NCBI RefSeq assembly: GCF_009914755.1
Contig: NC_060934.1
Length of the DNA: 64,000 nucleotides
Reading direction: 5' to 3' (one strand)
DNA from: the human T2T-CHM13v2.0 reference genome, Homo sapiens
This document shows, piece by piece, positions 251 to 3,962 of this stretch (position 1 is its first letter; each line of letters begins with the position of its first letter). A program made the position numbers and the translations under genes. The notes beneath the pieces were generated by a model. It did not search any database. It saw only the letters and a list, made by a program, of their open reading frames with translations, and was not told the origin of the DNA.

Positions 251-1102
251 TACCATGATGATGGTGGTACTGGTGATAGCGGTGGTGCTGGTGATGTTGG
301 TGATGTTATTGTTGATGATGGTGGTTGGTAGTATTGCTGTTGGCGGTGATGGTGGTGGTGGTAACATTGCTGGCGGTGATTGTGTTGGTAGTATTGATGT
401 TGGTGGGGGTGGTGAAGGTGGTAGTATTGTTGGTAGTAGTAGTATTGGTGATGGTGGTGGTAGTATTGTTTTTGGTAGTGTTTTTAGTATTGATGATAGT
501 GGTGGTAGTGTTGTTGGTAGTATTGTTGGTAGTGTTAGCATGGTTGTTGGTGGTAGTATTACTGGTAGTAGTGTTGGTGATAGTGGTGATGGTGGTAGTA
601 TTGGTAGTGGTGGTGGTAATATTGGTGATGGTGGTAGTATTGGTAATATTAGTGATAGTGGTGGTGGTAGTATTGTTGGTAGTATTGGTAGTGTTAGTAG
701 TGGTAGTATTGTTGGTAGTATTGTTGGTGATAGTGGTGATGGTAGTATTGTTGATAGTATTGGTAGTGGTGGTGGTAGTATTGGTGATGGTAGTAGTATT
801 GCTAATATTAGTGATAGTGGTGGTGGTAGTATTGTTGGTAGTGTTGGTAGTATTGGTAGTAGTGGTAGTATTCGTAGTATTGTTGGTGATAGTGGTGATG
901 GTGGTAGTGTTGTTTTTGTTGGTATTATTGCTGTTGGTAGTATTGTTGGTGATGTGTTGGTGGTGATTGTGGTGGTGGTAGTATTGTTGGTAGTGTTTTT
1001 GGTAGTGTTGGTGGTGGTATTGTTGTTGGTGGTAGTATTGTTGTTTGTAGTATTGGTGACAATGGTAGTAGTAGTAAGTATTGTTGTTGGTATTACTAGT
1101 AT

Positions 1103-1592
1103 TGAGGCAGGAGAATAGAGCCTGGAGGCAGAAGACCTAAGGACTTCCTAGAACTAAATCAAATGGAAACACGCTGTGACAGGAAATAATCTCTTCATTT
1201 ACATTGGGTGTACACTGAGTAAATGACTATGTAACTTTACTTCAGCCTCTTCATTTTTTTTTTTTTTTTGAGATGGAGTTTCACTATTGTCACCCAGGCT
1301 GGAGTGCAGTGGTGCGATCTCGGCTCACTGCAACCTCCGCCTCCTGGGTTCAAGCGATTTTCCTGCCTCGGACTCCTGAGTAGCTGGGACTACAGATGTG
1401 TACCACCAGGCCCAGCTAATTTTTGTATTCTTAGTAGAGATGGGATTTCACCATGTTGGCCAGGATGGTATCAATTTCTTGACCTTGTGATCCGCCCACC
1501 TCGGCCTCCGAGAGGGGTGGGATTACAGGCATGAGCTACCATGCCTGGCCAGCCTCTTCGTTTATATAGGGTGTACACCAAGTAACCAATGG
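1103..1592 (+). mobile_element. ERV1 LTR 5' half (MER51-like), split by an Alu and 3'-truncated
   Basis: Starts TGAGGCAGGAGAATAG...CCTAAGGACTTCCTAGAACTAAATCAAATGG; resumes after the Alu and ends at AGTAACCAATGG. Confidence 0.7.
1254..1550 (-). mobile_element. Alu (S-type) inside LTR
   Basis: Full dimer, poly-T on +, TSD agcctcttc(a/g)ttt. Confidence 0.95.
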
Positions 1593-3962
1593 TGGTGGTA
1601 GTATTGTTGGTGATACGGTAGTATTGTTATTGTTGGTAGTGTTGTAGGTGATGGTGATGGTAATAGCATTGTTATTGTTCATAGTATTGTAGGTGATGGT
1701 GGTGGTGGCGGTAGTATTGTTATTGTTGGTTGTATTGTTGGTGATGGTGGTAATATTGTTACTGTTGGTAGTATTGTTGGTAGTGTTGGTGATGTGGCGG
1801 TAGTATTGTTGGTAGTGTTGGTGATGTTATTCTTGGTAGTATTGTTGGTGATGGTGGTGGTGGTAGTATTGGTGGTAGTATTGTTGGTGATGTATTATTG
1901 GTAGTGTTGGTGTTGTTATTCTTGGTAGTACGGTTGGTGATGGTGGTGGTAGTATTGGTGGTAGTGTTGTTGGTGATGTAGTATTGTTGGTACTGTTGGT
2001 GATGTTATTCTTGGTAGTATTGTTGGTGATGTAGTATTGTTGGTAGTGTTGGTGATGTTGTTATTGGTAGTATTGTTGTTGGTAGTATTGTTGGTGATGT
2101 GGTAGTATTGTTGGTAGTGTTGGTGATGTTGTTATTGGTAGTATTGTTGGTGGTAGTATTGTTGGTGATGTGGTAGTATTGTTGGTAGTGTTGGTGATGT
2201 TATTCTTGGTAGTATTGTTGGTGATGGTGGTGGTGGTAGTGTTGGTAGTATTGTTGGTGATGTGGTAGTATTGTTGGTAGTGTTGGTGATGTTGTTATTG
2301 GTAGTATTGTTGGTGGTAGTATTGTTGGTGATGTGGTAGTATTGTTGGTAGTGTTGGTGATGTTATTCTTGGTAGTATTGTTGGTGATGGTGGTGGTGGT
2401 AGTGTTGGTAGTATTGTTGGTGATGTGGTAGTATTGTTATTGTTGGTAGTATTGTAGGTGATGGTGGTGGTGATAGTATTGTTATTGTTGGTAGTATTGT
2501 TGGTGATGGTAGTGGTAGTATTTTTTTGTTGGTGGTATTGTTGGTAGTATAGTTAGTGATGTAGTGTTGGTGGTGGTAGTATTGTTGGTGCTGCTGGTGG
2601 TGGTAGTATTTTTGGTAGTGGTGGTAGTATTTTTGGTAGTGGTGGTAGTATTTTGGTGATGGTTGTGAAGTATTGGTGATGGTGGTGGTGGAAGTATTGG
2701 TAGTAATTTTCGTAGTGTTGGTGGTGGTGGTATTGTTATTGGCAGCGATGGCAGTGGAGGTGGTAGTGGTGGTAGTACTGTTGGTAGTATTTTTAGTAGT
2801 GTTGGTAGTGGTGGTATTGGTGATGGTGGTGGTGGTAGTGTTGTGGTGTGGTGTGGTGGTAGTGGTGATGGCAGTGGAGGTGGTAGTGGTGGTAGTATTG
2901 TCAGTGATGGTGGTTGTGGTAGTATTGTTGGTAGTATTTTTCATAGGTTGGTAGTGGTGGTATTGGTGATGGTGGTGGTGGTAGTATTGTTATCGGTGGT
3001 GATGGCGGTGGAGGTGGTGATGGCAGTGGAGGTGGTAGTGGTAGCAATATTATTGATAGCAGTTTTGGTAATGTTGGTGGTGGTAGTACTGCTGATGGTG
3101 GTGGTGGTGGTAGTATTGTTAATCAGTGGTGATGGCAGGGGAGGTGCTGGTGTTAGTACACTGTCATCAGTGGAGCTCCCATTTTTCAGCTGAATGCCTT
3201 CGTGGCATAGGCCTCCTGGGAATGAGTGTGGGTAGAACGTCCCTCATTTGTGGTTGAGATTTTTCCCTGGAGCTGTGTTGGTGGGGGAAGCCTTGTTCCA
3301 CGTGTGTTGGGGTTAGAGGGTGTGTGGCTGCTCAGTGGTCAGCTTTGATGTCACCTGAAACATGTTACAGGTGAGTCAGGTGGAGCATTGGGGAACTGCA
3401 GGGAGAGGAGTGTTTTCTGATGTCAGAGCCGATGGAGCTTTAAAAGCTAAAAATGAAACAAACAGAAAATGTGGAGAGATGTTCAGTAGTTTGCTCGGTA
3501 CATTTTTAAAACTTCCGAGTGGTCCTGTGTGTTGGGTGTCATGGTGGACACACTGTCGTGGGCGCTTTCTGGGCAAAGTCTCCCCTGCCTGCCCTTTATC
3601 CTTGTGTGCTTTCGTCCTGCCCAGCAGCACCTCTGTAAGCAAGCAAACAGGGTTTTATAGCCTCTTGCTGAGTATTTCTCATCTCTTGCTAAGTATTTCT
3701 ACTGTGGTGCAAAAGCAATCTTATTATGTGTTGCTGTATTTTTATAGTCAATTGAAATGACTATTAAAATACAACATTGCTCATCAGGCTCAGAGCAGCA
3801 CTGCTGGAGAGGCCTGCCCTTGCAGATGAGGCAGCTGAGTCCTGGAAAGAGAGGCCTTCTTGGGAATCACAGCCGATGCAGGGGCCTGAGGCCTGGGCTG
3901 CTATGTAGGACCCTCCACAACCTCAGAACAGTCCTGGGCTCTGCTGTCACATCTTGAAATGT

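What the first reader, a model, noticed from the sequence alone, without database searches (positions are those of the whole stretch)
255..3150. ~2.9 kb GGU-rich array in DOCK1 intron 1: candidate ESRP1 platform controlling intron detention and circDOCK1
Seen: a strongly strand-biased triplet array 17-20 kb upstream of exon 2. On the sense pre-mRNA it has roughly 6-9 GGU per 60 nt (my estimate: a few hundred in total), almost no C (so little Watson-Crick self-pairing), and higher-order units of 71 and ~89 bp. Established: ESRP1/2 bind GGU/UGG motifs. I recall a report that ESRP1 binding to a GGU-containing repeat in DOCK1 intron 1 delays splicing and allows back-splicing to exon 2 (circDOCK1(2-27), lost in EMT). 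I cannot tell from sequence whether this array is that element or a second, undescribed one nearby. Inference: it is a multivalent RBP scaffold whose length polymorphism could tune the circRNA:mRNA ratio. It follows a MIR-like 3' end, so it may have grown from a SINE tail.
Basis: partly seen in the sequence, partly recalled or inferred. Interest (0 to 1): 0.8.

Follow-up and report, generated by a model that had tools for sequence, protein, structure and literature searches.

The report
Known ESRP1-binding GGU repeat, DOCK1 intron
This GGU-rich repeat in the first intron of DOCK1 is real, but it is the smaller of two repeat clusters already published as the ESRP1 docking region that delays splicing and allows a circular DOCK1 RNA to form.

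Summary
Window 255-3150 is a strand-biased triplet array in two arms (255-1105 and 1591-3150), split by a 485-bp spacer that carries an Alu. The arms hold 273 GGU (6.6-6.9 per 60 nt, against 0.9 in the background) and about 2% C. Higher-order periods of 71, 89 and 163 bp are present.

It is not a new element. Liu et al. [quoted passage not shown] They deleted 8 kb covering both, which abolished circDOCK1(2-27).

In the complete T2T intron 1 (75.3 kb), UGGUGGUGG forms only two clusters:
- the window array, with 23 copies, 17.1-20.0 kb upstream of exon 2;
- a 34-bp tandem array just outside the window, with its near edge 22.4 kb upstream.

The window array is therefore the published secondary cluster.

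New here:
- The two arrays are paralogues that share a 5' flank (89.6% identity).
- The major array is 10,956 bp with 387 motifs in T2T, against 1.2 kb with 31 motifs in the hg19-based study.
- The window array contains a perfect 163-bp tandem duplication.

Its separate contribution and any effect of length polymorphism are untested.

The parts
70..254 (+). 5' flank module that precedes the array. It is paralogous to the flank of the upstream 34-bp array.
   Evidence: BLAST of window 70-1091 against upstream -13268..-12227. Alignment A1 gives 163 of 182 aligned flank positions identical, 89.6%. A genome-wide DNA search finds only these two copies, the second at 81% over 185 nt. MIR identity was not tested.
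255..1105 (+). Arm A of the GGU-rich array. Base units are 9-12 bp (consensus TGGTAGTATTGT) with 75- and 159-bp higher-order periods.
   Evidence: 93 GGT (6.56 per 60 nt), 1.8% C, 0 ACC. TRF rows. Lag 159 = 0.587. 8 non-overlapping TGGTGGTGG. Its first ~170 bp (255-425) align with the first unit and the last ~95 bp of the upstream array.
1106..1590 (.). Non-repeat spacer that splits the array. It holds a minus-strand Alu (about 1253-1549) with a 10-bp target-site duplication (1243-1252 and 1550-1559).
   Evidence: Composition returns to background: C 23%, GGT 0.74 per 60 nt. Read directly. Alu-to-Alu BLAST hits of 77-82% to other copies in the intron.
1591..3150 (+). Arm B of the GGU-rich array.
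   Evidence: 180 GGT (6.92 per 60 nt), 2.1% C, 0 ACC. 15 non-overlapping TGGTGGTGG. TRF periods 12, 18, 53, 71 and 163.
2077..2438 (+). Perfect tandem duplication of a 163-bp higher-order unit (71 + 92 bp), 2.2 copies.
   Evidence: A 199-nt exact self-match at lag 163, and 163 of 163 identical between successive units. Lags 71, 89 and 163 are the top autocorrelation peaks in 1800-2450.
2805..3104 (+). The stretch of the window array densest in high-affinity ESRP-type hexamers.
   Evidence: 0.39-0.44 of its nucleotides are covered by the 12 ESRP SELEX hexamers, against 0.05-0.29 elsewhere in the array. It has 21-22 GGT per 150 nt.
20270..20353 (+). DOCK1 exon 2. Its acceptor is the splice site that ESRP1 binding keeps unspliced, and it is the acceptor of the exon 27 to exon 2 back-splice.
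   Evidence: Hub annotation for the coordinates. Function taken from PMC10853802 sections 28-29.

Best explanation
Window 255-3150 is the proximal, older and more degenerate module of a two-part GGU-repeat landing pad for ESRP1 in DOCK1 intron 1. [quoted passage not shown] 2024.

On the pre-mRNA it presents 273 GGU triplets at a median spacing of 8-9 nt, in RNA that can barely pair with itself. Each of the three qRRM domains of ESRP1 clamps one GGU, so many ESRP1 molecules can load side by side.

Together with the paralogous 34-bp array 2.4 kb upstream (1,994 GGU in T2T), this coats the intron with ESRP1 in epithelial cells. The coating changes the intron's RNP make-up and delays exon 1 to exon 2 splicing. 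The exon 2 acceptor therefore stays free until Pol II reaches exon 27, 157 kb later, and back-splicing, helped by inverted Alus, gives circDOCK1(2-27) at the expense of mRNA.

Shown in print, for the 8-kb region as a whole:
- ESRP1 cross-links there.
- Deleting the region abolishes the circRNA and raises DOCK1 mRNA and protein.
- ESRP1 loss or gain changes intron 1 detention.
- Removing the 5' splice site mimics ESRP1.

Inferred here:
- That the window array is the secondary cluster.
- That it acts as an auxiliary module, since it holds about 12% of the GGU and 5.6% of the UGGUGGUGG of the platform in T2T.
- That multivalency and open structure are what make it effective.
For: [quoted passage not shown]
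- Motif map of the complete T2T intron 1 (75,269 nt, no N): 411 non-overlapping TGGTGGTGG, of which 387 lie in -13068..-2113, 23 in 255-3150 and 1 elsewhere.
- Geometry: the near edge of the upstream array is 22.4 kb from the acceptor, so a 1.2-kb remnant there would be centred at about 23 kb. The window array lies at 17.1-20.0 kb. 1.2 + 2.4 + 2.9 kb = 6.5 kb, which fits inside an 8-kb deletion.
- GGU density is 7 times background, and ESRP SELEX hexamers cover 0.22-0.23 of the arms against 0.03 in the rest of the intron.
- Open RNA: MFE -86.6 against -226.1 kcal/mol for a control of equal length.
- The crystal structure shows qRRM2 clamping GGU, and the authors propose GGU(Nx)GGU(Ny)GGU as the optimal site.
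Against: - I could not see Figures 4A, 6A or S4, nor the guide-RNA coordinates, because the supplement zip was unreadable. The identification therefore rests on motif counts and distances, not on coordinates.
- The counts differ slightly: 23 here against 21, and 2.9 kb against 'spanning 4 kb'.
- The published density in the major peak (31 per 1.2 kb) is lower than any 1-kb bin of the T2T array (29-46 per kb).
- No experiment separates this array from the major one.
- Its hexamer cover is less than half that of the upstream array (0.22 against 0.52), and it holds only 273 of 2,267 GGU. It could therefore be dispensable.
Confidence: 0.8

Rival explanations
1. Bound but dispensable. The window array is a decaying minisatellite paralogue. 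It cross-links to ESRP1 simply because of its sequence, while the homogeneous upstream 34-bp array does all the functional work.
For: - It holds only 12% of the GGU (273 of 2,267) and 5.6% of the UGGUGGUGG (23 of 410) of the two arrays.
- Hexamer cover is 0.22 against 0.52.
- Its units match at 63-81% against 94-97% for the upstream array.
- It tolerated an Alu insertion.
Against: - The paper reports real peaks over it.
- Being 71-100% uniquely mappable, its signal is not a mapping artefact.
- It is the part of the platform nearest the regulated acceptor.
- A perfect 163-bp duplication shows it is still turning over rather than only decaying.
- No single-array deletion has been reported in the text I read.
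Confidence: 0.3
2. Shared GU-rich platform. The array is primarily occupied by ubiquitous GU-binders, above all hnRNPM, which normally support orderly splicing of this 75-kb intron. ESRP1 acts by displacing them rather than by any activity of its own.
For: - hnRNPM and ESRP1 share GU-rich sites including GUGGUG and UGGUGG, and ESRP1 lowers hnRNPM binding by about 70% on one probe (PMC6140460, passages).
- HNRNPM binds GU-rich elements in long introns and prevents back-splicing (PMC8346284, abstract and passages).
- GUGGUG occurs at 24.9 per kb in the arms against 0.6 in the background.
- ESRP1 BioID was dominated by hnRNPs, and the authors favour a changed RNP landscape.
Against: - Neither hnRNPM paper mentions DOCK1 (0 occurrences).
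- No hnRNPM CLIP data were examined here.
- This model is compatible with the best explanation rather than exclusive of it.
Confidence: 0.25
3. DNA- or transcription-level effect. The G-rich non-template strand forms R-loops or G-quadruplexes that slow Pol II or splicing, independently of ESRP1.
For: GC skew is +0.9 to +1.0 over 2.4 kb. There are 93 start sites of four GG-tracts with loops of 1-7 nt in 1-3200.
Against: - No canonical G3+ quadruplex motif is present, and there are only 5 GGG in the arms.
- G+C is only 38-48%.
- The published effect depends on ESRP1 knock-down or induction.
Confidence: 0.05
4. An undescribed second element, separate from the published ESRP1 region.
For: I did not see the coordinates of the published peaks.
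Against: Only two UGGUGGUGG clusters exist in the whole intron. The paper describes exactly two, with matching counts and distances.
Confidence: 0.05

Closest known systems
ESRP1-bound GGU-containing tandem repeat region of DOCK1 intron 1 (Liu, Dredge ... Goodall, Nucleic Acids Res 2024, PMC10853802)
   Same: Same gene, intron and strand. It lies more than 15 kb upstream of the exon 2 acceptor. Its UGGUGGUGG count (23 against 21) and span match the paper's second, broad peak set. It sits 2.4 kb from the major array, so an 8-kb deletion 'encompassing the two peaks' would include it.
   Different: Nothing about the element itself differs.

- It is the minor, degenerate paralogue of the major array.
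- The major array is about 9 times longer in T2T (10,956 bp) than the 1.2 kb described from hg19.
- The peaks were called after a samtools -q 10 filter. By my recollection of STAR's mapping scores, that filter removes multi-mapping reads. It would penalise the homogeneous major array (79-93% of its 30-50-mers occur more than 10 times) but not the window array.
QKI-driven circRNA formation in EMT (Conn et al. 2015; recalled, cited in the paper as the looping mechanism)
   Same: An EMT-regulated RNA-binding protein that binds intronic motifs controls the abundance of circRNAs.
   Different: QKI is thought to bridge the two flanking introns as a dimer. Here ESRP1 peaks near the other end of the circle were under 1% of the intron 1 peak, and the proposed action is detention of the upstream intron, not bridging.
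Repeat-based RNA-binding-protein platforms or sponges such as NORAD (PUM), PNCTR (PTBP1) and expanded CUG repeats (MBNL); all recalled, none checked here
   Same: Many tandem copies of a short protein-binding motif on one RNA give multivalent, high-capacity binding.
   Different: Those act in trans by titrating the protein. This array acts in cis on the splicing of its own intron, although the authors do raise a local-sink idea.
Minisatellite / VNTR
   Same: Head-to-tail units of 9-36 bp with higher-order periods, strand asymmetry, and a perfect recent duplication of a 163-bp unit.
   Different: Length variation between people was not testable, because only one genome was available. The array is old and degenerate (63-81% matches), unlike the young upstream 34-bp array (94-97%).

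Membership tests
Published ESRP1-binding repeat region of DOCK1 intron 1 (PMC10853802) | Lies in DOCK1 intron 1, sense strand, more than 15 kb upstream of the exon 2 3' splice site and next to the major peak at 23 kb. | tested here: met
   The array is 17.1-20.0 kb upstream. The major 34-bp array ends 22.4 kb upstream and 2.4 kb from the window array. Paper text.
Published ESRP1-binding repeat region of DOCK1 intron 1 (PMC10853802) | A cluster of about 21 UGGUGGUGG motifs spread over about 4 kb, the only such cluster besides the major one. | tested here: met
   23 non-overlapping motifs in 255-3150. Of the 411 motifs in the intron, 387 lie in the upstream array and 1 lies elsewhere.
Published ESRP1-binding repeat region of DOCK1 intron 1 (PMC10853802) | ESRP1 HITS-CLIP reads enriched over the sequence. 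| not testable with these tools
I rely on the paper's statement.
Published ESRP1-binding repeat region of DOCK1 intron 1 (PMC10853802) | Lies inside the 8-kb CRISPR deletion that abolishes circDOCK1(2-27). | tested here: inconclusive
   The text says the deletion encompasses the two peaks. The guide coordinates are in a supplement that could not be read.
VNTR / minisatellite | Tandem head-to-tail units of about 10-100 bp. | tested here: met
   23 TRF rows with periods of 9-163 bp. Autocorrelation.
VNTR / minisatellite | Copy number varies between individuals. | not testable with these tools
   Only one assembly is held. Indirect hints are a perfect 163-bp duplication and 23 against 21 motifs between T2T and the hg19-based count.
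MIR (SINE) tail-derived repeat | The 5' flank matches the 3' part of the MIR consensus, and the array starts at the SINE's tail. | not testable with these tools
   No repeat library is on hand. The genome DNA search found only the local paralogue (2 matches), which says nothing about a SINE that is about 30% diverged. The resemblance is by eye and from recall only.
TDP-43 (UG)n binding platform | Runs of UG dinucleotides (UGUGUG or longer). | tested here: not met
   TGTGTG occurs 0 times and GTGTG 2 times in 2,411 nt of the arms.
Canonical G-quadruplex-forming repeat | Four tracts of three or more G with loops of 1-7 nt. | tested here: not met
   No such motif in 1-3200. Only two-G tracts are present, with 93 start sites.

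The most novel reading that the evidence does not exclude
In a complete genome the real ESRP1 platform of DOCK1 is about 13.4 kb of GGU repeats (2,267 GGU), not the roughly 5 kb analysed on hg19. It is bipartite.

One module is a young, homogeneous 34-bp array of about 324 units. It is almost unmappable with short reads and shows multi-kb internal duplications, so it is probably highly copy-number variable. The other module is the window's old, uniquely mappable array.

If ESRP1 load scales with copy number, the length of these arrays would set the circDOCK1(2-27):DOCK1 mRNA ratio in epithelia. That would make a repeat-length circRNA QTL with consequences for cell motility. The window array would then act as the fixed baseline and the upstream array as the variable dial.
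Probability: 0.2. Interest if true: 0.65.

Novelty: already known. Interest (0 to 1): 0.3.

Why it matters
The element is part of one of the clearest cases in which a tissue-specific RNA-binding protein, acting from deep inside an intron, diverts a gene's output from mRNA to a circular RNA and so restrains cell migration in EMT.

The useful by-products are practical:
- The only functional study used hg19, where the authors note that intron 1 contains a masked N region. It also filtered out low-mapping-quality reads.
- In T2T the major array is 9 times longer than described and largely unmappable, while the window array is well mappable. The published relative peak heights therefore cannot be read as relative occupancy.
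- The two modules have never been tested apart.

Tried and rejected
- **Supplement of PMC10853802** (guide RNAs, Figures S4 and S6A): one listing and three reading attempts. The zip gave no text within the time limit, so I have no coordinates.
- **MIR test:** a genome-wide DNA search with window 60-254 returned only itself and the local paralogue. The tool is not sensitive to old SINEs, so the MIR claim is neither supported nor refuted. window.fa carries no soft-masking.
- **Literature on length variation or a T2T description of this repeat:** 'DOCK1'+'VNTR' gave 11 papers. I opened 2, and neither concerns this array. 'DOCK1'+'tandem repeat'+'intron 1' gave 4, with only the Liu paper relevant. 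'ESRP1'+'VNTR' gave 5, none relevant by title. 'DOCK1'+'T2T-CHM13'+'intron' gave 0. 'DOCK1'+'ESRP1'+'intron 1' from 2023 gave 2, the paper and a review. These searches cover main texts only.
- **Coding reading:** stop-to-stop frames of up to 311-316 aa run through arm A on both strands. I rejected this as meaningful, because it is the mechanical result of a triplet repeat deep in an annotated intron.
- **Duplicate flanks downstream of the arrays:** BLAST found no homology between the 3' flanks of the two arrays. The only shared sequences were the 5' flank, Alus and one old interspersed repeat.
- **The repeat finder with long seeds** gave only smeared families. The exact-match scan was needed to find the 163-bp duplication.
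- **Cross-species conservation** could not be examined, because no other vertebrate genome is held.
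Full report
**1. The observation**

Window 255-3150 is a genuine, strongly strand-biased tandem array (sequence read).
- TRF reports 23 overlapping rows with periods from 3 to 163 bp.
- GC skew stays at +0.88 to +1.0 across it.
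- It holds 279 GGT, or 5.8 per 60 nt, against 0.89 per 60 nt in the remaining 60,850 nt of the window. No 300-nt bin elsewhere exceeds 12 GGT, while bins inside reach 44.
- ACC, the reverse complement of GGT, occurs 0 times in the repeat arms.
- Identity at lag 3 is 0.63-0.66 against a mean of 0.36-0.39.
In 1800-2450 the top lags are 163 (0.678), 71 (0.676) and 89 (0.621). Arm A instead shows 75 and 159.

One correction is needed: the array is not continuous. It has two arms, 255-1105 and 1591-3150, with C at 1.8% and 2.1% and 6.6 and 6.9 GGT per 60 nt. A 485-bp spacer of ordinary composition separates them. The spacer contains a minus-strand Alu with a 10-bp target-site duplication.

The predicted RNA is nearly structureless. 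601 nt fold to -86.6 kcal/mol with an almost empty centroid, while a control stretch of the same intron folds to -226.1 kcal/mol.

**2. What is in print**

I read the abstract, sections 14, 27, 28, 29, 30 and 33, figure legends and further passages. I saw no figures or supplements. The paper states:
[quoted passage not shown] It covers 1.2 kb with 31 copies of UGGUGGUGG.
- The binding sites lie more than 15 kb from the splice site.
- An 8-kb CRISPR deletion 'encompassing the two ESRP1 peaks' almost eliminates circDOCK1(2-27) and raises DOCK1 mRNA and protein.
- ESRP1 knock-down lowers intron 1 detention and ESRP1 induction raises it.
- The crystal structure shows qRRM2 clamping GGU.

**3. Mapping the window array onto the paper**

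The window's own genome is held. I fetched the rest of intron 1 and mapped UGGUGGUGG over all 75,269 nt. There are 411 non-overlapping motifs: 387 in one array at window -13068..-2113, 23 in window 255-3150, and 1 elsewhere. No other 250-nt bin reaches 12 GGT except one at -16249.

The intron therefore has exactly two clusters, as the paper describes. The near edge of the upstream array is 22.4 kb from the exon 2 acceptor, so a 1.2-kb representation of it would be centred at about 23 kb. The window array lies at 17.1-20.0 kb, more than 15 kb away, 2.4 kb from the first array, and carries 23 motifs against the published 21.

I conclude that the finding is the paper's secondary, broad peak set and lies within the functionally tested 8 kb.

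Caveats:
- Guide and peak coordinates were not readable.
- The stated span is 4 kb against 2.9 kb here.
- The published density in the major peak (31 per 1.2 kb) is somewhat below the T2T density of 29-46 per kb.

**4. Anatomy and origin**

The upstream array is a 34-bp tandem repeat of 233 + 91 copies at 94-97% matches.
- It measures 10,956 bp and holds 1,994 GGT.
- An anchor word splits it into 321 units of 16 types. Two types make up 241 of the 320 complete units.
- Blocks of unit types recur over roughly 2 kb.
- Its unit occurs 323 times genome-wide with up to 2 mismatches, all on the forward strand. The 100 listed places all lie in this array.

The window array's own 18-mer core occurs 13 times in the genome, all inside the window array. 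A 27-mer pattern with up to 1 mismatch gave 5 of 5 hits there. The sequence family is therefore private to this locus.

The two arrays are paralogues.
- Window 70-254, the flank, aligns with the flank of the upstream array at 163 of 182 identical positions.
- Window 255-425 aligns with that array's first unit and its last ~95 bp.
- The flank has only these two copies in the genome.

A 'flank plus short proto-array' module was therefore duplicated long ago; about 10% divergence suggests tens of millions of years, which is an uncalibrated inference. One copy then amplified an internal 34-bp unit recently. The other, in the window, grew 3'-wards with 9-12-bp units, decayed to 63-81% matches and took an Alu insertion.

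The window array is not inert. Positions 2077-2438 are 2.2 perfect copies of a 163-bp unit, with a 199-nt exact match at lag 163.

Both arrays begin directly after the same flank with ATGATGATGG. This fits growth from a short triplet tail. Whether that flank is a MIR could not be tested here.

**5. Mechanism**

The most likely mechanism is the published one, with this array as the auxiliary module. It is a single-stranded, multivalent track of GGU with a median spacing of 8-9 nt. ESRP1's three GGU-clamping qRRMs load onto it. The loaded intron is detained, which leaves the exon 2 acceptor free for the exon 27 donor.

- Shown in the paper, for the joint region: binding, necessity, ESRP1 dependence of detention, and sufficiency of detention.
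- Inferred here: the share contributed by this array.

In T2T the window array has 12% of the GGU and 5.6% of the UGGUGGUGG. ESRP SELEX hexamers cover 0.22-0.23 of it, against 0.52 for the upstream array and 0.03 for the background. Its best segment is 2805-3104, at 0.39-0.44.

A compatible refinement is displacement of hnRNPM. hnRNPM shares GUGGUG and UGGUGG sites with ESRP1, competes with it (PMC6140460, passages), and suppresses back-splicing from GU-rich long introns (PMC8346284, abstract and passages). Neither of those papers mentions DOCK1.

TDP-43-type UG runs are absent, and canonical G4 motifs are absent.

**6. A technical point on the published data**

Peaks were called on hg19 after a samtools -q 10 filter. 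By my recollection of STAR's mapping-quality scheme, that filter keeps only uniquely mapped reads. The authors also note a masked N region in hg19 intron 1.

In T2T, 79-93% of the 30-50-mers of the upstream array occur more than 10 times. By contrast, 71-100% of the window array's 30-50-mers are unique and none occurs more than 10 times. The window array's CLIP signal is therefore trustworthy. The relative heights of the two published clusters, however, cannot be read as relative occupancy.

**7. Novelty and verdict**

The element and its function are already known, so the finding is a correct recognition and not a discovery.

Three things were not found in print by my searches (main texts only, supplements unseen):
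- the paralogy of the two modules;
- the 11-kb size of the major array in a complete genome;
- any test of length variation.

Whether the 1.2 kb in hg19 is a short allele or an assembly truncation cannot be decided here.

Noticed in passing
L007:6932-9997 and L006:1-7887 (window -13068..-2113, just upstream of the window): A 10,956-bp, very homogeneous 34-bp tandem array of about 324 units at 94-97% matches, with 1,994 GGT and 387 UGGUGGUGG. It corresponds to the published major ESRP1 peak, which was described as 1.2 kb with 31 motifs on hg19. Blocks of unit types recur over about 2 kb, pointing to recent unequal exchange.
   Followed up: yes
window 2077-2438: A perfect tandem duplication of a 163-bp higher-order unit (199-nt exact self-match at lag 163) inside an otherwise degenerate array. 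This is a recent event and a likely site of length variation.
   Followed up: partly
window 4187-4229: The annotated exon of other DOCK1 transcripts, 1 kb downstream of the array, is preceded by TG rather than AG and followed by a strong GTAAGT donor. It therefore looks like an alternative first exon. Transcripts starting there would lack both ESRP1 arrays.
   Followed up: no
window 1190-1227 and 1551-1590: About 37 bp on either side of the Alu insertion site resemble each other (ctcttc...gggtgtacac...agtaa). This is a small local duplication that predates the Alu, whose own target-site duplication is 1243-1252 and 1550-1559.
   Followed up: no
window 255-1105 and 1591-3150; also the upstream array: GUAGU is very dense: 47.7 per kb in the arms and 31.5 per kb in the upstream array, against 0.8 per kb in the background. 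UAGU-type words are, from recall, the core of Musashi-protein sites. UGUU is also enriched (47 against 7.6 per kb). Proteins other than ESRP1 may therefore share the platform.
   Followed up: no
window 183-1147: Stop-free frames of 311 aa (+ strand) and 316 aa (- strand) run through arm A. This is a mechanical consequence of the in-phase triplet repeat (69 of 93 GGT in one phase) and not evidence of coding.
   Followed up: partly
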